A stretch of 51,448 bases of DNA, from the sequence record MN158215; one strand, given 5' to 3'. A program made the translations under genes and the position numbers. This document shows, piece by piece, positions 6,316-51,324 of the stretch (the first letter of the stretch is position 1; each line of letters opens with the position of its first letter). Under the pieces are notes generated by a model. It did no database searches. It was given only the letters and a program-made list of their open reading frames with translations, and was not told the DNA's origin. Source of the stretch: Escherichia phage BEK12B.

Positions 6316-6672
6316 TTATTGCATTGATGTAAATTGCTCAGTAAATGTTGCTTTCACTTCCTGAACGGTTGCTGATACAGGCGTTAATCCAATACTGCCG
6401 GATTTCACCCTGAATAGACCAGGTTGACCGTCAGGCATAAACCATAAAAACGGCTTCAGCCTGTGTCCATTCAGGAAGTCAACAACATCTCGGTAATCAT
6501 TACCCACATAGACAATGGAAAACTCCCTGCGTACCGTGTTAAACCCTCCTGATGCAACCTGCGTGTAACCATTACCAAATGATATTTCCCTGTCGTTATT
6601 TGATGTGGTCATAGTGCCGCCGCCTCCTTGCGTTTGCGTACACCATTTGAATTGCTCAAGTTTCACTATCAC
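6316..6672 (-). CDS. minor tail protein (lambda M-like)
   Basis: 118 aa ORF immediately after tape measure gene with ATGA-type overlap. Confidence 0.6.
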   Translation of the reverse strand: MIVKLEQFKWCTQTQGGGGTMTTSNNDREISFGNGYTQVASGGFNTVRREFSIVYVGNDYRDVVDFLNGHRLKPFLWFMPDGQPGLFRVKSGSIGLTPVSATVQEVKATFTEQFTSMQ

Positions 6673-9572
6673 CCCCGCTTAGACATAACAAATTCGTAAA
6701 CTTCCCCACCCTGCGTACAGGAACGCTTAATCATATCAGTGAAAATCATTTTTACGCCAGTCTCCAACCCTTTCGGATCGCTTCCGTTGTTAATATCAAC
6801 GCTGATCCCGCCAATATTAAGATTTGTGGCTCCAGATGAAACTCCGCCTCCAGTGTATGAAGCTCCACCAACAACGCCGCCATTTGCATAACCGCGCATC
6901 ATTTTGTAAAGATTTCCAACTCCGATCCGCTTCGTGGCCTCCTTAGTCATGACAAACTCGCCTTTATGAACAACACCTGCTGGCTCATACTTCCCTCCGT
7001 CGCCAGTGTACCCACCAGTTGCAAATCCAACATTTTTAAGAAGGCTTCCAATCGTCCAAGTGTCACCGCCCATCGCACCAGATATGGCATTAAAGATAAC
7101 CATCTTCGTAATCATCTGAACAATCAGGCTAATGATCGATTTTGCAAAGTCTTTGAAGTTTGCTTGTCCAGTAGTCAAAAAATCAGCCATTTGTTGCGAT
7201 AGACCGTTTAGCGCCTGGCTCGCAATGTTGCCGATATTATCATACATGTTCATTGCTTCCTCGCCGTACTCAGCAAATGCATTTTTAGCGCCAGCCAACC
7301 AATCAGCACGTTTAGCATCTTCCTCTTTATAGCGGTTGTCTAAGGCATCCATCATGGATTTAAGTTGCGGATCTTCTTTCTGCCCTCCATTAGCAAGATA
7401 ATCAGATTCAACCTTTGCACGTTCCGCCGCTCTTGCTGATTCACGCTCGCTCAACCCTCTGGTTTTTGCTAGTGCTTCTGTTGCTGCTTTCTGCTGCTGG
7501 ATAAACTTGATTGAGCTATCTTGCAACTGATTAAGGCGCGTTTGCGCAACAATCTGATCGCCTAAAATAGCTTTTTGTTCAGCCATGGCTAAGATCTTAT
7601 CTTTGTTGGCTAAAATGCTTTTTTCTTCATCAGTAAGTTGCCGCTTTGTTGAGGCTTCTTGCAAAATCTGAATTTTAGCTTGTTCAGCCCATAAAGATTT
7701 ACGTTGCTGGCTTATGGTATCTGTGATCGTCTTGTGCTCTTTCAAAACTCTTAATTGAGTTTCTAACGCCAGGATATCACGCTGATATTGTTCTTCAAGT
7801 TTATCTCCAGCCGAAACCTTAACTTTTGTAACTTTATCTCGCTTTGATAATTCCTCGGCTTCCTTCCTGATATTATCTTTTGTTTTTGTCGCATATTGCT
7901 GTTCAACCGCCGCACGATTTTTCATCATGTCAATGTAACCTTGCTCGCCTTTTTTGACTCTCTCGTTACGTTCGGCAATTGATTTTAATAGCTCCTTGTT
8001 TTGCTCTTTTGATTTATTAATGATCTGTTGCTGCTGTGCAATTACTGAATCACCAACGCCATCAAGACCAGGTATTTTTTGCATAGCCTTTGTTGCAGAT
8101 ACAATAAATTCACCAATGAGAATATCACCCTGATTAAGCAAATAACGAACTTGCTCAACTGTTCCGGCTACAACGTCAATAATCAGGTTCAGCGCCGCCA
8201 GCGTGTGATCCCCAACCCAACCCCATGCATCTGACGCCCATTTTTTAATGTCCGTCCACATCTTTTCTAATGGCGTTGCGGAGTCTGCCAGTTCAGCTAA
8301 TCTCTGATCCATAACATCAGCAAATAACTTTGTTGCCGTCGTTACAGCCTCTGTTTTGCCTTTCGTTTTCTCAAGGTCTGCAATATAAGTTAACTGCCCT
8401 TCGCTTAAAAAGTTGAATTGTTCGTTTAGCTCTGCAAGACCTTTAACCGGATCACCAGCAATCTTATTAAAGTAATCGGTTATCTTGTCGCTTGATTCAC
8501 CAGTTACCGTTGACCACTGAGCGGTAGTCTTTGTGATCGCTTTAATCTGATCAATCGTGAATTTGCCTGATTTTGCAAGCTCTGTTGCGATGGATCGTAT
8601 GTTTCCTATCGTAGCGTCAGTGCTGTTATTAATGTCCTGCTCCAGATTATCGAACTGTGAGCCGCTTGTGCCAGCATATCCACCAGTCAGAGCCAACGCC
8701 TCTTGCAAGTCACGTTGCGATTTATACGCATCATAACCAGCTTTAACAATAGCACCCATTGAAACGGCTAATGCGGCAAGGCCAACGTTTACCGGATTCA
8801 GAAACGACAACAGCACTTTAAACGTATTACCAACGCCGCCGAAAGAATCCTTAATCTGTCCACCCTGCTGGATTGCAACTAACCAAACGGGCATACCGGA
8901 AGCCAGCGACGTTACAACGTCAGTGATCTGAGCCGGAAGTTGCGCCATAGCTTGCTTGTATTGCCCCGCGCTAATTCCGGTTAACTTCATCTGTTTTTCT
9001 TGCGCTTTAAGCTGTGCAATAAATGGCGCGGCCTGAGCACTTACGCCAAGTTGCGCCGCTTTCATTTCCAGCAATTCGGATTTTGTTTTGCCAAGCGCTG
9101 AGGCTTGCCATTCCAGATCCGCAAGGAAAGTTTTTCCGGCTAACGCTGCTTTCTCTTTGGCTTTTGATTCCTCAAGTGCTGCACGGCCTTCTTCCGTTAA
9201 CGCCTTTTTATTACGCTCCAGCTTACTGATCTGAGTTTCCAACATGCTCCCTAATTGGAAGAATGTTTCATCAGGTACAATCCCTTTTTTCCATAGCTTA
9301 TCAAGATCACTTGCTGCCTGTGACAGCTTGCGCATTTTTGCCGCTGTCGGATCAACTGTATCCTGAATTCTCTTAAATTCACGGCTCTGTTTCGCCAATT
9401 CATCAGCTAATTGCTTTGCTCTTTGCTTTGCAATTTCTTCCTCATTAACAAAGCTCTCAACTCCTTTCTTTGCTTCGTCGTTTGCCTTCTTGAATTGCTG
9501 CAAAGACTTTACAGCATTGTTGAGTTGAGAAACGTCAACCCCAAGCGTCAATCCTGCGTATTGTTCTGACAT
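6669..9572 (-). CDS. tail tape measure protein
   Basis: 967 aa, extensive coiled-coil/Ala-Gln-Lys-rich sequence, located after G/GT chaperone pair; RBS AGGAGG. Confidence 0.85.
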   Translation of the reverse strand: MSEQYAGLTLGVDVSQLNNAVKSLQQFKKANDEAKKGVESFVNEEEIAKQRAKQLADELAKQSREFKRIQDTVDPTAAKMRKLSQAASDLDKLWKKGIVPDETFFQLGSMLETQISKLERNKKALTEEGRAALEESKAKEKAALAGKTFLADLEWQASALGKTKSELLEMKAAQLGVSAQAAPFIAQLKAQEKQMKLTGISAGQYKQAMAQLPAQITDVVTSLASGMPVWLVAIQQGGQIKDSFGGVGNTFKVLLSFLNPVNVGLAALAVSMGAIVKAGYDAYKSQRDLQEALALTGGYAGTSGSQFDNLEQDINNSTDATIGNIRSIATELAKSGKFTIDQIKAITKTTAQWSTVTGESSDKITDYFNKIAGDPVKGLAELNEQFNFLSEGQLTYIADLEKTKGKTEAVTTATKLFADVMDQRLAELADSATPLEKMWTDIKKWASDAWGWVGDHTLAALNLIIDVVAGTVEQVRYLLNQGDILIGEFIVSATKAMQKIPGLDGVGDSVIAQQQQIINKSKEQNKELLKSIAERNERVKKGEQGYIDMMKNRAAVEQQYATKTKDNIRKEAEELSKRDKVTKVKVSAGDKLEEQYQRDILALETQLRVLKEHKTITDTISQQRKSLWAEQAKIQILQEASTKRQLTDEEKSILANKDKILAMAEQKAILGDQIVAQTRLNQLQDSSIKFIQQQKAATEALAKTRGLSERESARAAERAKVESDYLANGGQKEDPQLKSMMDALDNRYKEEDAKRADWLAGAKNAFAEYGEEAMNMYDNIGNIASQALNGLSQQMADFLTTGQANFKDFAKSIISLIVQMITKMVIFNAISGAMGGDTWTIGSLLKNVGFATGGYTGDGGKYEPAGVVHKGEFVMTKEATKRIGVGNLYKMMRGYANGGVVGGASYTGGGVSSGATNLNIGGISVDINNGSDPKGLETGVKMIFTDMIKRSCTQGGEVYEFVMSKRG

Positions 9573-9591
9573 TATTAATCCTCCTGGTAAT

Positions 9592-9613
9592 AAAAAAGCG
9601 CCCGTAGGCGCTT
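9592..9613 (-). terminator. hairpin plus T-run between GT chaperone and tape measure gene
   Basis: minus sense aagcgcctacgggcgctt followed by TTTTATT. Confidence 0.4.
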
Positions 9614-10237
9614 ATTTTGAATGCATCATTTCAAGTGCTTTTTGCTCCATGATTCGCAAGTCGTTTAGCGCCATCTCGCGATCCTCAACCTTGTAAATCT
9701 CAAAAAGCATCGGGAGAACGTTGTAATCAAATCCGTAAGCGCCACCGCCAGAACATCTCCATTGCGTTTGCATTGCGCAAAATATATCCCATGATTGCAT
9801 CATGCTTTCATCAAATATAACCTCTGGCGGATCTTCTCCTTCATAGTCTGCCCTTGTAAGCCCAACGGCCTCAAGCTCTGCGTCTGTCGGCGGTTTCTGA
9901 TAATACAGATAAACCGCCCGTTTTAGTTTTTTACGCGTTGCCCTGCCAGCGCGCTCAAATAAGATCCCATAAGAGCAAGCGCCGCGCCAGGATAATAATC
10001 AACTAACAGTTGCGCGTTTTCTTCGTTGAATTCTTCTTCCAGATCCCAACCCACGGCAACATTCATGATGAATTCAGGATCTTTAATACCTTCTTTCTGG
10101 TAAAGCTCTTGAATCTCGCTGGCCTTTTTATGCTTAACGGTAAACACAATTTTTTGCTCGTTACCATCCGGCAATACAAATTTAACTGGAAGTTTGAAAT
10201 CTGGAAGCGGGGCAAGAGTCAATTTCATTTTAGCCAT
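9612..10237 (-). CDS. tail assembly chaperone -1 frameshift fusion product (lambda GT-like)
   Basis: A_AAA_AAC heptamer (plus coords 9926..9932) immediately 5' of the G-like stop; -1 frame is open to 9612 and joins ORF 9612..9803 (translation ...KKLKRAVYLYYQKPP...MMQSWDIF...). Confidence 0.6.
9923..10237 (-). CDS. tail assembly chaperone (lambda G-like)
   Basis: 104-aa acidic ORF between major tail and tape measure genes; ends with slippery heptamer then stop. Confidence 0.65.
   Translation of the reverse strand: MAKMKLTLAPLPDFKLPVKFVLPDGNEQKIVFTVKHKKASEIQELYQKEGIKDPEFIMNVAVGWDLEEEFNEENAQLLVDYYPGAALALMGSYLSALAGQRVKN
9926..9932 (-). promoter_or_regulatory. programmed -1 ribosomal frameshift slippery site
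   Basis: minus-strand AAAAAAC directly before TAA stop of G-like ORF. Confidence 0.6.
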
Positions 10238-10284
10238 TGTCATTTCTCCTGAGTGGTTAAATATTGAGGTGATATTACATCAAA

Positions 10285-10310
10285 TAAAAAAGGGACGCAA
10301 TGCGCCCCTT
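10285..10310 (-). terminator. hairpin plus T-run after major tail protein gene
   Basis: minus sense aaaggggcgcattgcgtccc followed by TTTTTTATTT. Confidence 0.5.
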
Positions 10311-10314
10311 TAAA

Positions 10315-10977
10315 TTAAGCCTGAGTAGACGGCAAGAAAGTAAAGCGACCTTTCAGGGATACCGACAAAGAAACGGTTTCCATTTCGTTTACCGCCGTTT
10401 GTGGGATCTCGTTGAAAGAAAGCACACCAGCCCAAAGGCGCATTTCTTTTGCTTTTGGTACATACATGCGAAGCGCCTTTACTTCACCGGATTCGTCTGC
10501 TGCACGAAGTAACGGATAGATCGCGTTATCGTATTCGTGCGCAAAAGTGTAGGTCAGAGAAATGGCGCTCTTATAGGTAGGCAACTGCTGTTCCTGGTCG
10601 TCTGCCAAACACTGATAAGTATAGTATTGCTGTTCGCCGCCGTCCTGCGACAAATCCTGAACGCAAGGGATCTCAGTCCATGCATCAATCTTGGCAAAAG
10701 ATGCAGTTCCGCCAGTCGGGAACACGTTCTGATCTGTAGTATCAACACCCTCAAGAGTTACGCTTGTTTCTTCACCGTTAGCCTTTACACGCATAACACG
10801 ATCAATCAGCTTACCCCAGGAGGACGCAGTGATGATTACATAATCTCCTTTCTTGTACGCAGTGCCACCAGATGCAACGGTGAACACAGGATCTTTAGCG
10901 TTTGATACTGCCGTTGCTTGGATTTCGCTGCCGCGATTGCTCTCAACGAAAACTTGCGATCCATTTGGTAAATGCAT
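10315..10977 (-). CDS. major tail protein
   Basis: 220 aa ORF directly upstream of chaperone pair, strong RBS AAAGGAG, followed by terminator-like hairpin. Confidence 0.65.
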   Translation of the reverse strand: MHLPNGSQVFVESNRGSEIQATAVSNAKDPVFTVASGGTAYKKGDYVIITASSWGKLIDRVMRVKANGEETSVTLEGVDTTDQNVFPTGGTASFAKIDAWTEIPCVQDLSQDGGEQQYYTYQCLADDQEQQLPTYKSAISLTYTFAHEYDNAIYPLLRAADESGEVKALRMYVPKAKEMRLWAGVLSFNEIPQTAVNEMETVSLSVSLKGRFTFLPSTQA

Positions 10978-10982
10978 AATTT

Positions 10983-11384
10983 TTACTCCTTTGTTTCAAT
11001 TCGAACATAAAACCTTATTGGGAGAAGCCAGCCGCTTTCACTCTTGAGCGGCTTGTGAACTCTTGCACCCTCATATATATAACCATGCTCCAACATTTTA
11101 CCATCGTAAAAGAATTGCGCAATCTCTTTAGCGAGCACACGCGGCCTGTCAGTTCCGTAACCTGGTGGAAACACAATACCAACCTGAATCATTCCGATAT
11201 AAGAAACGCATTTGCGATCCAATGACAAGTATTCTGTGTCAACTTCGGCATAGTCAAACTTCAACCACGGCGAACCGTCACCAGGTGGCGTAAACTCTAC
11301 GTTTTCATAAGCGATCATGAATCTGCTTTCGTATTCAGTCGCCAGCGCCTTACGCGCCGATAGCATTAATTCATAGTGACTCAT
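10983..11384 (-). CDS. tail terminator-like protein (lambda U position)
   Basis: position immediately upstream of major tail gene; ORF-track start is TTG, ATG at 11384 with RBS ACGGAG preferred. Confidence 0.4.
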   Translation of the reverse strand: MSHYELMLSARKALATEYESRFMIAYENVEFTPPGDGSPWLKFDYAEVDTEYLSLDRKCVSYIGMIQVGIVFPPGYGTDRPRVLAKEIAQFFYDGKMLEHGYIYEGARVHKPLKSESGWLLPIRFYVRIETKE

Positions 11385-11880
11385 GTTGAACTCCGTGATT
11401 TTTGTGGTATCCAAAATTTAATTCTGCATCTTTTCTTGCTTTAGCAGCTTCATCAAAGCTAACAAAGAAACCTAAGTGCAACCTCTTTTTGTTGTGCATT
11501 ATTTGAGCGTACCATTTCTTGTTTTTTCGATGATAGTAAACACCGGTAACTCCGCTTGAGTTTCTTTTGTCGATTGTTTTGTTTCTCATGTTTCCAGATC
11601 TATCAACAATCCTTAGATTCTCAATTCTGTTGTCAGTTGTGTTGTGATTAATATGGTCAATCTCCATGCCGTCAGGAATTGGCCCGTTGTGCATCTCCCA
11701 AACTATGCGATGAACCCTAAACTGACCGCCAAACATATTAACAACAACGTATCCGCGATTATTTACATTTCCAGCTACGTCGCCAACAGAACAAGGATAC
11801 TTACATTTTGACTGATCTTTAATCTGAATCTTCCAGTAAATAAGTCCATCTTTGTATGTGAATATATCATCATAGTGCAT
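11371..11880 (-). CDS. HNH homing endonuclease
   Basis: EIDHINHNTTDNRIENLR HNH motif, N-terminal YKDGLIYW and C-terminal GYHKNHG as in the other HNH copies; inserted within structural operon. Confidence 0.85.
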   Translation of the reverse strand: MHYDDIFTYKDGLIYWKIQIKDQSKCKYPCSVGDVAGNVNNRGYVVVNMFGGQFRVHRIVWEMHNGPIPDGMEIDHINHNTTDNRIENLRIVDRSGNMRNKTIDKRNSSGVTGVYYHRKNKKWYAQIMHNKKRLHLGFFVSFDEAAKARKDAELNFGYHKNHGVQHESL

Positions 11881-17411: not shown

Positions 17412-18691
17412 TACTCATTCCCCTGTGTGCCTGGCTCCGGCTCCGATGGCTCCGGCAGCTTGATTTTATTAGTGTCCTTTAGTTTAACGCTTGGGGCGAT
17501 TGCTCGCAACGTGTCGCGCGCTTCTTCAACATCAAGGAACTGACCATCAATAGCCTTGCTGATTGAGTCGATATTCTTATTCAGAATTTCAGCCTGATCT
17601 TTATCGCTAGGTACGCTCAAAGGTGAAAACTCAATGCTCCACTCCTGCTCACTAATGATGAACGGCAATAGAAATTCAAGGATAGGCTTGTAATCCTCGA
17701 CGCGTTTTCGTTCAATCAGCTTATAGAATGTTTCAAGCGCCGTGTTTTGGCTTGCGCTAACGCCGCCAACGTTTTTGTTTTTCAGGATGATTTCATGAAT
17801 ACCTGAAAGGGAAACGATGCGATCCATTTTCTTTTCCAAGAAAGAATCAACGCCGCTGATGTCAGAATTAAGAACATCATATTCCTCATCCTCAGCATCA
17901 ATACCAATTGCTTTTCCAACACCGCCATCGTCGTCAACCTGCGCAAGTCTCAGGCGTGCCGCGCTAACACCTTCCTCATCATCGCACAAGTCAGCAAGTC
18001 CTTTAGCCTTCCATACAGCCTGCTGTTTCCTCCGCAATAATTGCGTTGCCAATGTTTCACAATAGTTATAATCAACAATAGCCTCAACAAGTCGCTTATT
18101 CAGAACTGACTCACCCCAGCCATCATTGCTGCGTCGCTTTGCGTTAGGTATCCGCTCACCGTCGATAATGCAAACTCGCGTGTAGTGTACCTGGTATTCC
18201 GGCAAGTCTCCGCCTGGCGTTACAGTGTAAAGCACTGGCTCACCATAGCGAACCTTGCGGGGATTAGTTTCGCGCGCCTCAACGCGAATCTGATAACGAT
18301 CGTAAACGCGAACATCTTCCAGCATGGCCCCAGGCTTTACAGGTGATTTGAGCGCCCGCCCATCCTGAACAAGAGCAATGATTGCAGATCCGCCAAACAA
18401 ACGCGACCAGCAAAGCGCATCAATAATTTTTGCATTCAATCGCTTTTCATCCCACAAAGAACGGAATGCCGCCTCGTCTGCCACTCCGTCAACAGTGAAG
18501 CCAGGGGAAACCATTTCCTCTGGCACTACGTCAATAATCCTTTTTGCTAGTCCGTCTTTTTCGTAAAAGTCAGCAAGTGTCTTGTATGGCATTGATTGCA
18601 TGTAGAATGGTTGCTCTACTCGCGATTTGCAATTCTCGCCTTTAAAGATCTCGTTATAGCCGTCAGTCTTAACGATTCGTGATTTACTCAT
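17411..18691 (-). CDS. portal protein
   Basis: 426 aa ORF directly downstream of terminase large subunit; acidic C-terminus. Confidence 0.75.
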   Translation of the reverse strand: MSKSRIVKTDGYNEIFKGENCKSRVEQPFYMQSMPYKTLADFYEKDGLAKRIIDVVPEEMVSPGFTVDGVADEAAFRSLWDEKRLNAKIIDALCWSRLFGGSAIIALVQDGRALKSPVKPGAMLEDVRVYDRYQIRVEARETNPRKVRYGEPVLYTVTPGGDLPEYQVHYTRVCIIDGERIPNAKRRSNDGWGESVLNKRLVEAIVDYNYCETLATQLLRRKQQAVWKAKGLADLCDDEEGVSAARLRLAQVDDDGGVGKAIGIDAEDEEYDVLNSDISGVDSFLEKKMDRIVSLSGIHEIILKNKNVGGVSASQNTALETFYKLIERKRVEDYKPILEFLLPFIISEQEWSIEFSPLSVPSDKDQAEILNKNIDSISKAIDGQFLDVEEARDTLRAIAPSVKLKDTNKIKLPEPSEPEPGTQGNE

Positions 18692-37102: not shown

Positions 37103-37448
37103 NNNNNNNNNNNNNNNNNNNNNNNNNNNNNNNNNNNNNNNNNNNNNNNNNNNNNNNNNNNNNNNNNNNNNNNNNNNNNNNTCTTCAAGGAGTGGAGAAG
37201 TAAGAGCAAGCGCAGCACCGATAGCGACGGACACGATGCTTTTTCTTGCGCNNNNNNNNNNNNNNNNNNNNNNNNNNNNNNNNNNNNNNNNNNNNNNNNN
37301 NNNNNNNNNNNNNNNNNNNNNNNNNNNNNNNNNNNNNNNNNNNNNNNNNNNNNNNNNNNNNNNNNNNNNNNNNNNNNNNNNNNNNNNNNNNNNNNNNNNN
37401 NNNNATACGAAGCTGGCAATTGCAATTGCCGTTTGTCCTGNNNNNNNN
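37103..37448. other. N-masked gap containing fragments duplicated from 36762..37075
   Basis: three N runs (79, 153, 8 nt) separating exact copies of holin/endolysin sequence. Confidence 0.9.
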
Positions 37449-50722: not shown

Positions 50723-50777
50723 TCGGCTTGCCGGATCGTGTATAGTTACAGCCAACAACAACTAAGGAGTATTGAAG

Positions 50778-51053
50778 ATGAAAAAATTAATCGCAGTTAT
50801 CGCCACCGTAGCCGCCCTGACCGGATGTTCTTCTTCGCCTACTGGCAACTTCAAGGAGATCGATTGCACGGCAAAATTTAACGTTAAAACATTCCCTGTT
50901 AACGGATTCCATGAAGTTAAAATTAATGCGGTCCGCGAAAACAGATTCAGCCAAAAGCAATACAGGTTGAGCGTTGACAATAAAGAAGTTAAATTTATCA
51001 ACCGTTGGCAAGATGAAAGAAAATTCATTGATTTGAGGTGCAAAAATGGCTGA
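50778..51053 (+). CDS. lipoprotein, candidate superinfection-exclusion (Cor/Llp-like) protein
   Basis: signal peptide with lipobox LTGC; RBS AAGGAG; located in fibre/receptor-binding locus. Confidence 0.55.
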   Translation: MKKLIAVIATVAALTGCSSSPTGNFKEIDCTAKFNVKTFPVNGFHEVKINAVRENRFSQKQYRLSVDNKEVKFINRWQDERKFIDLRCKNG

Positions 51054-51324
51054 ATATGGGTATGCAATATATGATGAGCAAGGTAGAAATGTTACTGGCC
51101 TTTTAACTCCAGTTTTTTTCTTGGATAAATTTACTCAATCATCTGGCAGTAAGACCTACTCAAACAGGCCTCCAGGTAAGTCGTTGAAAGCAATATATGT
51201 TGGAATGAATTCGTGGCGCGGAGGAGATCCTGGCGCTCCAAGTTTAGGTGTAAGTGGTGATACCGTTACATGGAGCGGACTTTCTGGATCTGACTCAAGA
51301 TATATATATACTTTTTGGGGGTAA
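51046..51324 (+). CDS. hypothetical protein, paralog family with 156..497 and 51327..
   Basis: 92 aa; N-terminal pattern shared with neighbouring ORFs. Confidence 0.4.
   Translation: MAEYGYAIYDEQGRNVTGLLTPVFFLDKFTQSSGSKTYSNRPPGKSLKAIYVGMNSWRGGDPGAPSLGVSGDTVTWSGLSGSDSRYIYTFWG

What the first reader, a model, noticed from the sequence alone, without database searches (positions are those of the whole stretch)
9612..10243. Programmed -1 frameshift site in tail assembly chaperone gene
The G-like ORF ends ...GTA AAA AAC TAA on the minus strand, so the heptamer A_AAA_AAC (plus coords 9926..9932) sits directly before the stop. The -1 frame is open from there through 9612 and includes ORF 9612..9803. 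This reproduces the conserved G/GT arrangement upstream of the tape measure gene in long-tailed phages.
Basis: partly seen in the sequence, partly recalled or inferred. Interest (0 to 1): 0.45.

Follow-up and report, generated by a model that had tools for sequence, protein, structure and literature searches.

The report
Tail chaperone G/GT frameshift site
This is the ordinary, well-known -1 ribosomal frameshift that long-tailed phages use to make a short and a long tail-assembly chaperone from one gene pair; here it sits in a T1-like coliphage whose database record does not annotate it.

Summary
On the minus strand, a 104-aa tail-assembly-chaperone gene (9923..10237, Pfam Phage_TAC_4) ends GTA AAA AAC TAA. 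The heptamer A_AAA_AAC is at 9932..9926. The -1 frame runs open from there to 9612 and encodes a DUF1799 domain that begins upstream of its first start codon.

The window is 100% identical to Escherichia phage BEK7 (Drexlerviridae, T1-like). Gene order is tail tube, G, T, tape measure, M, as in lambda.

The heptamer alone is not rare (30 copies against about 22 expected). However, this is the only one of 45 in-frame slippery heptamers with a long -1 extension (104 codons).

In 119 of 121 related loci the T part is in the -1 frame, and 87 carry AAAAAAC plus a stop codon at the same place. In one Dhillonvirus the -1 frame opens only at the heptamer. Codon-position variability switches from the G frame to the -1 frame exactly at the G stop.

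An 11-bp hairpin lies 7 nt downstream. It is strong in this clade but not universal, and covariation does not support it.

The homologous frameshift is already annotated in the T1-like phage Skenny, and PHROG 17368 models the fused product. Verdict: real, ordinary and already known. It is an annotation gap, not a discovery.

The parts
10315..10977 (-). Tail tube (major tail) protein gene, upstream neighbour (lambda V position)
   Evidence: Pfam PF08813 Phage_tail_3, E = 1.4e-64. Annotated as major tail protein in relatives.
10289..10311 (-). Terminator-like hairpin between the tail tube gene and G
   Evidence: Consensus scan. Phage T1 has an annotated rho-independent terminator at the same place. 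Function is inferred only.
10246..10250 (-). Shine-Dalgarno AGGAG for the G gene
   Evidence: Read from the sequence. It lies 8 nt before the ATG at 10237. Duplex energy with the anti-SD is -7.4 kcal/mol.
9923..10237 (-). G-like tail assembly chaperone gene (104 aa plus TAA); 0-frame product
   Evidence: Pfam PF08748 Phage_TAC_4, E = 2.2e-37, full length. Matches phrog_17368 positions 1-107. Same CDS as QGH76939 in the BEK7 record.
9926..9932 (-). Slippery heptamer A_AAA_AAC, the last two sense codons of G
   Evidence: Conserved as AAAAAAC plus stop in 87 of 121 related loci. It is the same heptamer as an IS cluster listed as a proven case of -1 frameshifting in E. coli (PMC4066793).
9923..9925 (-). 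0-frame TAA stop immediately 3' of the heptamer
   Evidence: In the 119 loci with the -1 arrangement, the stop always lies one codon after the slip-prone codon (AAA or AAG, GGA in one).
9889..9918 (-). Hairpin of 11 bp (7 + 4 with a 2-nt bulge, 6-nt loop) starting 7 nt after the heptamer; candidate frameshift stimulator
   Evidence: MFE fold. The 40-nt window folds at -16.1 kcal/mol, against a mean of -5.9 for windows in the G-T region (top 2%). It is present in most Tempevirinae and Tunavirinae relatives. Differently sequenced hairpins sit at the same spot in a Dhillonvirus, a Pantoea phage and L110 (one of the more distant IMG/VR contigs), but several clades lack one. Covariation is not significant.
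9612..9929 (-). -1 frame extension (T part): 104 codons from CTA at 9926..9924 to the TAA at 9614..9612; together with G it gives a 208-aa GT fusion
   Evidence: Open frame. Pfam PF08809 DUF1799, E = 6.8e-13, starting at residue 22 of the extension, about 20 codons upstream of the first ATG. Matches phrog_17368 positions 109-211. T-frame codon periodicity starts directly after the G stop.
9612..9803 (-). The 63-aa ATG-started ORF annotated as a separate hypothetical protein; in fact the C-terminal part of the T extension
   Evidence: There is no SD upstream (TATATTTGATGAAAGC). The first start codon in the T frame sits anywhere from codon 4 to codon 67 among relatives.
9596..9613 (-). Terminator-like hairpin right after the T stop, before the tape measure gene
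   Evidence: T1 has an annotated terminator at the same place.
6669..9572 (-). Tape measure protein gene (967 aa), downstream neighbour (lambda H position)
   Evidence: Pfam TMP_2, E = 2.6e-64, and Tape_meas_lam_C, E = 6.8e-22.

Best explanation
This is a programmed -1 ribosomal frameshift of the lambda G/GT type in a T1-like siphophage.

Most ribosomes translate the chaperone gene (10237..9926) and terminate at TAA 9925..9923, which gives the 104-aa G protein. A small fraction slip back one base on A_AAA_AAC (9932..9926). There tRNA-Lys re-pairs AAA to AAA, and tRNA-Asn re-pairs AAC to AAA imperfectly. These ribosomes continue with CTA AAA CGG... to the TAA at 9614..9612. The product is a 208-aa GT protein carrying a C-terminal DUF1799 domain.

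The 11-bp hairpin 7 nt downstream (9918..9889) probably raises the slip rate in this clade.

By analogy with lambda, many copies of G and a few of GT coat the tape measure protein. The T part recruits the tail tube protein, and neither G nor GT ends up in the virion.

Shown here: the sequence anatomy, the protein families, the conservation and the frame switch of selection. Inferred: that the slip happens, its efficiency, the role of the hairpin and the assembly function.
For: - Anatomy.
- Gene order tail tube, G, T, tape measure, M.
- G is Phage_TAC_4. The -1 extension is DUF1799, and that match starts before any start codon.
- PHROG 17368 matches the fusion over 1-207 of 208 residues, E = 1.2e-114.
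- A tblastn search with the fusion finds 1151 phage records. Every record listed matches in two pieces, that is in two frames.
- 119 of 121 loci have T in the -1 frame. 87 carry AAAAAAC plus a stop, and a Ralstonia phage carries G_GGA_AAC plus a stop.
- In Dhillonvirus Envy the -1 frame opens only 10 nt before the end of G's stop codon, so the shift must occur on the heptamer.
- Codon-position variability is in the G frame up to 9926. It is in the T frame from 9922 on, including 9922..9804, which has no start codon.
- The length of the T extension is constant (102-107 codons), while the first start codon in that frame wanders.
- Among the best 150 of 1.84 billion cluster representatives, G-type hits end at about query residue 103 and T-type hits are separate proteins.
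- This site is unique among the 45 in-frame heptamers of the window.
- There is a strong local hairpin at the canonical spacing.
- The homologous gene pair is annotated as 'tail assembly chaperone frameshift product' in Klebsiella phage Skenny (PMC6763657).
- The lambda mechanism and the 30:1 ratio are from PMC5009743.
- An IS cluster with A_AAA_AAC is listed as a proven case of -1 frameshifting in E. coli (PMC4066793).
Against: - There is no protein-level evidence for this phage or, as far as I found, for any T1-like phage.
- In E. coli, re-pairing AAC to AAA is poorly tolerated, so the efficiency should be low. That is compatible with a G>>GT ratio, but it has not been measured.
- The hairpin has no significant covariation and is missing in several clades.
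- Webervirus relatives keep only an A_AAA tetramer, so the full heptamer is not essential to the family.
- The GenBank records of BEK7, T1 and most relatives annotate two separate genes.
Confidence: 0.9

Rival explanations
1. Transcriptional slippage: RNA polymerase adds one extra A in the A6 run, producing a minority mRNA in which G and T are in one frame. This would give the same fusion protein (with Lys-Lys at the junction) without any ribosomal slip.
For: The slip site is a run of six A, and of seven A in Dhillonvirus-type relatives. The protein product would be the same as from a -1 ribosomal shift. Runs of seven A or seven U are noted as prone to transcriptional slippage (PMC4066793).
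Against: Six A is shorter than the runs known to give appreciable slippage in bacteria (general knowledge). Relatives keep the same -1 arrangement with no long homopolymer: G_GGA_AAC in a Ralstonia phage, GCA AAA GTT in 27 Webervirus-type loci, GCA AAG GTC, and CAA AAG CAC. The motif is always in the X_XXY_YYZ or A_AAR codon phase. A hairpin sits at the spacing typical of ribosomal stimulators.
Confidence: 0.05
2. No recoding: G and a small T protein (63 aa, starting at ATG 9803) are translated independently, as the GenBank record annotates them, and the upstream open -1 frame is accidental.
For: The BEK7, T1 and many other records annotate two separate CDS. An ATG exists at 9803.
Against: There is no Shine-Dalgarno before 9803. 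The DUF1799 match and phrog_17368 both cover the 41 codons upstream of that ATG. Those codons show T-frame coding periodicity of 0.136/0.102/0.370. The first start codon in the T frame lies anywhere from codon 4 to codon 67 in relatives, while the extension length stays at 102-107 codons. Annotators disagree on the T ORF length (192, 270, 168, 144, 117 nt) or omit the ORF altogether.
Confidence: 0.04
3. The shift occurs elsewhere in the 76-nt overlap (9998..9923), or by another route such as termination-reinitiation or a +2 shift, rather than on A_AAA_AAC.
For: The -1 frame is already open from 9998. The exact site is not determined experimentally.
Against: There is no other in-frame X_XXY_YYZ heptamer in the overlap. 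The overlap shows only G-frame periodicity. In relatives the overlap varies from 10 to 211 nt but always includes the last codons of G. There is no start codon near the stop that could serve reinitiation.
Confidence: 0.01

Closest known systems
Bacteriophage lambda G/GT tail assembly chaperones (-1 PRF at G_GGA_AAG; Levin 1993, Xu 2004/2013/2014 as summarised in PMC5009743)
   Same: Two overlapping ORFs sit between the tail tube and tape measure genes. The second ORF is in the -1 frame and has no start of its own. There is a slippery heptamer near the end of G. The short product is expected in excess over the fusion, and the downstream genes are lambda-like (H with Tape_meas_lam_C, then M).
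   Different: The heptamer is different: A_AAA_AAC, placed directly against the stop codon rather than several codons upstream (the position in lambda is from my own knowledge). The Pfam families are different: Phage_TAC_4 and DUF1799, with no match here to lambda's own G or T families. A downstream hairpin is present here. Nothing has been tested experimentally.
Klebsiella phage Skenny (Webervirus, T1-like), CPT_Skenny_038/039 'tail assembly chaperone frameshift product'
   Same: The gene pair is homologous (about 45-49% identity for Webervirus-type relatives). It holds the same position, has the same -1 relationship, and is annotated as a joined CDS (PMC6763657).
   Different: Skenny ends GCA AAA GTT TAA, so it has only an A_AAA tetramer and not a full heptamer. 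It has a different, weaker downstream structure.
IS-element -1 frameshift on A_AAA_AAC in E. coli (cluster A_AAA_AAC_1; I take this to be IS1 insA-insB')
   Same: The slippery heptamer is identical and the host translation machinery is the same. The cluster is listed as a proven case, and frameshifting there is low-level (PMC4066793).
   Different: It is a transposase and not a phage chaperone. That paper reports no established stimulator for it. The identification as IS1 is from my own knowledge, not from the passage read.
E. coli dnaX tau/gamma frameshift (A_AAA_AAG with an upstream SD-like element and a downstream hairpin)
   Same: A lysine-codon slippery run followed by a downstream hairpin in an E. 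coli-translated mRNA.
   Different: dnaX shifts at high efficiency, with AAG in the A site and a strong internal SD. Here the upstream SD-like AGGG is weak (-6.0 kcal/mol) and not conserved, and the A-site codon is AAC.

Membership tests
G/GT-type tail assembly chaperone with programmed -1 frameshift (long-tailed phages) | Gene pair located between the major tail (tube) gene and the tape measure gene | tested here: met
   PF08813 tail tube at 10315..10977; TMP_2 plus Tape_meas_lam_C at 6669..9572.
G/GT-type tail assembly chaperone with programmed -1 frameshift (long-tailed phages) | Second ORF overlaps the end of the first in the -1 frame and has no conserved start codon or RBS of its own | tested here: met
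   The -1 frame is open over 9998..9612. 119 of 121 related loci have the -1 arrangement. The first start codon in the T frame varies from codon 4 to codon 67, and there is no SD in the window.
G/GT-type tail assembly chaperone with programmed -1 frameshift (long-tailed phages) | Slippery sequence (X_XXY_YYZ or similar) in the overlap, in the 0-frame phase | tested here: met
   A_AAA_AAC at 9932..9926. It is the only in-frame heptamer in the overlap.
G/GT-type tail assembly chaperone with programmed -1 frameshift (long-tailed phages) | The arrangement is conserved among relatives despite sequence divergence | tested here: met
   Conserved down to 26-30% protein identity: Pantoea, Ralstonia, Dhillonvirus and Klebsiella phages.
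G/GT-type tail assembly chaperone with programmed -1 frameshift (long-tailed phages) | The extension is under protein-coding selection in the -1 frame from the shift site onward | tested here: met
   Third-position variability switches frame at the G stop: 0.413 in G-frame position 3 before it, 0.370 in T-frame position 3 after it.
G/GT-type tail assembly chaperone with programmed -1 frameshift (long-tailed phages) | A fusion protein is actually produced, at a low ratio to G | not testable with these tools
   Needs mass spectrometry, western blot or a reporter assay. I found no published data for T1-like phages.
G/GT-type tail assembly chaperone with programmed -1 frameshift (long-tailed phages) | G binds the tape measure protein and the T part binds the tail tube protein; both are absent from virions | not testable with these tools
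   Known for lambda (PMC5009743); inferred here.
Pfam Phage_TAC_4 (PF08748) / DUF1799 (PF08809); PHROG 17368 | Sequence match above the curated threshold | tested here: met
   128.5 bits against a cutoff of 21.1; 49.1 bits against a cutoff of 26. phrog_17368 at 382 bits over the whole fusion.
Downstream RNA stimulator of -1 PRF (hairpin or pseudoknot 5-9 nt after the slip site) | Stable structure at the right spacing | tested here: met
   11-bp hairpin at 9918..9889 with a 7-nt spacer; -16.1 kcal/mol, top 2% of local windows.
Downstream RNA stimulator of -1 PRF (hairpin or pseudoknot 5-9 nt after the slip site) | The structure is conserved with compensatory changes across relatives | tested here: inconclusive
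   76% of cells are paired, against 73.6% in shuffles. The covariation score of 0.128 does not exceed the -1 slide control (0.148). The stem overlaps the conserved R-A-V and P-P codons. The hairpin is absent in several clades.

The most novel reading that the evidence does not exclude
The family-wide invariant may not be the heptamer. It may be 'A_AAR (or G_GGA), one more codon, then the stop codon'.

In all 119 loci with the -1 arrangement, the 0-frame stop lies exactly one codon after the slip-prone codon. Webervirus-type phages keep only that tetramer.

This could mean that the adjacent stop codon is itself part of the recoding signal, for example through slow termination or a particular E/P-site geometry. 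The clade-specific hairpins would then be optional boosters. On this reading the T1-like G/GT sites are a natural series for dissecting tetramer versus heptamer -1 shifting next to a stop codon.
Probability: 0.2. Interest if true: 0.35.

Novelty: already known. Interest (0 to 1): 0.15.

Why it matters
The main value is practical. The database records for BEK7, for phage T1 itself and for most Drexlerviridae list two unrelated small 'hypothetical' or mislabelled 'tape measure' proteins instead of G and a joined GT product. The correct annotation for this window is a 104-aa G (10237..9923) and a 208-aa GT (10237..9926 joined to 9926..9612, minus strand).

Because the A-site codon here is AAC (Asn) and not AAG, the junction residue distinguishes two slip routes. 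Asn indicates a tandem slip. Lys indicates a P-site slip before A-site decoding, or transcriptional slippage. Lambda cannot make this distinction. This is a modest mechanistic opportunity, not a new phenomenon.

Tried and rejected
- Word-indexed homologue search with the fusion: only 3 hits, all T-only. It was uninformative, so I replaced it with tblastn, locus scans and the exhaustive representative search.
- Natural in-frame G-T fusions as 'Rosetta stone' evidence: among 150 representatives only P0019 (206 aa) spans both parts. It comes from an 811-bp contig at 2.6x coverage and lacks the junction motif. P0146 crosses the junction and then loses frame. Both are likely assembly errors and were not used as support.
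- The apparent '+1' exception (L028/L060, one IMG/VR contig): explained by several single-base homopolymer deletions, that is sequencing errors.
- Covariation support for the hairpin: not significant.
- Upstream SD-like stimulator as in dnaX: the AGGG is weak (-6.0 kcal/mol) and not conserved; the median percentile among relatives is 0.25. Rejected.
- Rfam: no known RNA family in 9500..10350, only two sub-threshold sRNA chance hits.
- PDB by sequence profile: no relative with a solved structure; best E = 0.27.
- Structure prediction was not run.
- Xu et al. 2013 (PMC3762263) could not be read. Xu et al. 2004 was not looked up. I therefore could not check whether T1 is in their original table.

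Full report
**Identity of the window.** The region 9400..10500 is 100% identical to Escherichia phage BEK7, BEK1-23 and BEC3 (Drexlerviridae, Tempevirinae, Hanrivervirus). These are T1-like siphophages of about 51 kb. The tail genes lie on the minus strand.

**Check of the observation.** Reading the minus strand:
- An ORF starts at ATG 10243, or more plausibly at ATG 10237. The latter lies 8 nt after the AGGAG at 10250..10246 and is the start used in the BEK7 record.
- The ORF ends ...CAA CGC GTA AAA AAC TAA. The heptamer A_AAA_AAC occupies 9932..9926 and the stop occupies 9925..9923.
- The -1 frame is open from 9998 to the TAA at 9614..9612. After the heptamer it reads CTA AAA CGG GCG GTT TAT ... 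(L K R A V Y ...).
- The first ATG/GTG/TTG in that frame is the ATG at 9803, so the 63-aa ORF 9612..9803 is only the tail end of a 104-codon extension.

**Is it more than chance?**
- The string AAAAAAC is common: 30 copies in the window against 21.9 +/- 4.7 in shuffles. By itself it means nothing.
- I listed all in-frame X_XXY_YYZ heptamers in 59 non-overlapping ORFs of at least 90 aa. There are 45, and only two have a -1 frame that continues past the 0-frame stop.
- This site continues for 104 codons. The other (TTTTTTC, 50780..50786) continues for 35.

**What the two reading frames encode.**
- The 0-frame product matches Pfam Phage_TAC_4 over its whole length (E = 2.2e-37).
- The -1 extension matches DUF1799 (E = 6.8e-13). 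That match starts at residue 22 of the extension, about 20 codons before the first possible start codon.
- PHROG 17368, a 213-position profile, matches the conceptual fusion from residue 1 to 207 with E = 1.2e-114. Proteins of the fused length therefore already exist in curated phage annotation.
- Upstream lies a tail tube protein (PF08813).
- Downstream lie a 967-aa tape measure protein (TMP_2 and the lambda-type C-terminal domain) and a lambda-M-like minor tail protein.
- The order is that of lambda V-G-T-H-M.

**Comparative evidence.**
- A tblastn search with the fusion against 50,697 phage records found 1151 records. 1079 of them cover at least 80% of the query, and every record listed matches in two pieces, that is in two frames.
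- I collected 121 loci and located the G stop and the T frame in each. In 119 of them T is in the -1 frame.
- The only exception is one IMG/VR contig fetched twice. It carries several single-base homopolymer deletions and is a sequencing artefact.
- The last codons of G are:

| Ending of G | Loci |
|---|---|
| xxA AAA AAC + stop | 87, including phage T1 itself (GCA AAA AAC TAA) |
| GCA AAA GTY/GCC TAA | 27 Webervirus-type |
| GCA AAG GTC TAA | 3 |
| CGG GGA AAC TGA | 1 Ralstonia phage |
| CAA AAG CAC TAA | 1 Klebsiella phage |

- The heptamer persists down to 26% G identity (Pantoea phage MED16).
- In Dhillonvirus Envy a TGA in the -1 frame lies immediately before the heptamer. The -1 frame opens only 10 nt before the end of G's stop codon, so the shift can occur nowhere else.
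- In 51 aligned relatives, variability by codon position is 0.185/0.135/0.421 in the G frame over 10237..10000 and 0.141/0.125/0.413 in the overlap 9998..9926. It is then 0.136/0.102/0.370 in the T frame over 9922..9804 and 0.143/0.074/0.320 over 9803..9615.
- Selection therefore follows the G frame up to the heptamer and the -1 frame right after it, including the 41 codons that have no start codon.
- The extension length is constant (102-107 codons), while the first start codon in that frame sits anywhere from codon 4 to codon 67. No Shine-Dalgarno precedes the ATG at 9803.
- In an exhaustive search of 1.84 billion cluster representatives, G-type hits end at about query residue 103 and T-type hits are separate proteins.
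- The two hits that cross the junction come from poor contigs.

**Stimulatory elements.**
- Seven nucleotides after the heptamer there is a hairpin at 9918..9889: GGCGGUU..UCUG-loop-CAGA AACCGCC, 11 bp.
- The 40-nt window containing it folds at -16.1 kcal/mol, against a mean of -5.9 for windows across the G-T region. That is the top 2%.
- The same hairpin is present in most Tempevirinae and Tunavirinae relatives.
- Differently sequenced hairpins occupy the same position in a Dhillonvirus, a Pantoea phage and one of the more distant IMG/VR contigs (L110). Several clades have none.
- A covariation count on 47 distinct sequences does not exceed its controls.
- The stem coincides with the conserved R-A-V and P-P codons.
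- I therefore regard the hairpin as a plausible stimulator that varies between lineages, not a demonstrated one.
- An upstream SD-like AGGG is weak and not conserved.
- Rfam has no family here.

**Mechanism.** This is the best-supported reading; I put its probability at 0.9.
- Most ribosomes terminate at TAA and make the 104-aa G protein.
- A small fraction slip -1 on A_AAA_AAC and make a 208-aa GT protein.
- For E. coli, Sharma et al. report that re-pairing AAC to AAA is poorly tolerated. They also list an IS cluster with exactly this heptamer as a proven frameshift case with no established stimulator (PMC4066793).
- This fits a low-level shift such as lambda's, where the G:GT ratio is about 30:1 and is critical for tail assembly (PMC5009743).
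- The assembly role is inferred from lambda: G coats the tape measure protein, and the T part recruits the tube protein.

**Rivals.**
- *Transcriptional slippage on the A6 run* would give the same protein. However, relatives without any long homopolymer keep the same arrangement.
- *Independent translation of a 63-aa T protein*, as GenBank annotates it, is contradicted by the domain boundaries, the periodicity and the wandering start codons.
- *A shift elsewhere in the overlap* is contradicted by the G-frame-only periodicity there and by the absence of other heptamers.

**Comparison with what is known.**
- The G/GT frameshift is described as widely conserved among long-tailed dsDNA phages (PMC5009743).
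- For T1-like phages specifically, the genome announcement of Klebsiella phage Skenny states that the tail assembly chaperones contain a frameshift analogous to lambda G and GT (PMC6763657). Its record carries a joined CDS, 'tail assembly chaperone frameshift product'.
- The records of BEK7, T1, DanielBernoulli, KMB25 and many others do not. There the two parts are called hypothetical, 'tape measure chaperone' or even 'tail length tape measure protein'.
- The finding is therefore real but already known in kind and in this phage family. What is new is only the corrected annotation for this genome.

**A residual point of modest interest.** Across all 119 loci the stop codon lies exactly one codon after the slip-prone codon (AAA or AAG, GGA in one locus), and Webervirus-type phages retain only an A_AAA tetramer. 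Whether the adjacent stop codon is part of the signal is untested.

Noticed in passing
phage records MG065636-MG065687 (hits H4-H19, H23): About 20 unannotated GenBank records named 'Campylobacter phage' (host C. jejuni) are about 91% identical to this T1-like coliphage region. Genomes of 47-50 kb like this look like Drexlerviridae coliphages, so the host labels are probably wrong or the phages were contaminants.
   Followed up: no
window 37103-37181, 37252-37404, 37441-37448: Three runs of N (79, 153 and 8 bases) interrupt the window. They are masked or unresolved sequence in an otherwise complete phage genome.
   Followed up: no
window 11371-11880 (-): This 169-aa ORF is annotated as a homing endonuclease in the BEK7 record. 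It sits between tail-completion genes and is absent at that position in the relatives KMB25 and DanielBernoulli, so it is a likely mobile insertion in the tail module.
   Followed up: partly
window 10289-10311 (-) and 9596-9613 (-): Terminator-like hairpins with T tails lie right after the tail tube gene and right after the T stop, so they bracket the G-T pair. Phage T1 has annotated rho-independent terminators at the same two places. This suggests stepwise attenuation of transcription from tube to chaperones to tape measure.
   Followed up: partly
L006, L034, L035, L040 (Skenny 18425-18442) and 23 further Webervirus-type loci; L081-L083; L039: These relatives lack a full heptamer: GCA AAA GTT/GTC/GCC TAA, GCA AAG GTC TAA, CAA AAG CAC TAA. 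Only an A_AAA or A_AAG tetramer two codons before the stop is kept, although L086, whose downstream sequence is Webervirus-like, has the full A_AAA_AAC.
   Followed up: partly
window 50780-50786 (-): An in-frame TTTTTTC heptamer lies 5 codons before the stop of the TTG-started ORF 50762..51067, with a -1 frame that continues 35 codons past the stop. It is the only other heptamer in the window with such an extension. Whether that ORF is a real gene was not checked.
   Followed up: no
L028 / L060 (IMGVR_UViG_2706796530_000001): This contig has several single-base deletions in homopolymer runs within 700 bases, including one in the A6 slippery run. They are sequencing errors that mimic a different frame relationship.
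   Followed up: yes
L122 (ENA ERZ27336856 NODE_101157, 811 bp): A 206-aa protein (P0019) carries Phage_TAC_4 and DUF1799 in a single frame, with about 10 residues missing at the junction. It could be a natural in-frame G-T fusion, but the contig is short and has 2.6x coverage.
   Followed up: partly
RefSeq and GenBank records of T1 (NC_005833 ST40/ST39), vojen, MezzoGao, Envy: The chaperone ORFs are labelled 'tail length tape measure protein' in several RefSeq records, and PHROGs 17368, 569 and 680 carry the same label. This is an annotation error that propagates.
   Followed up: no
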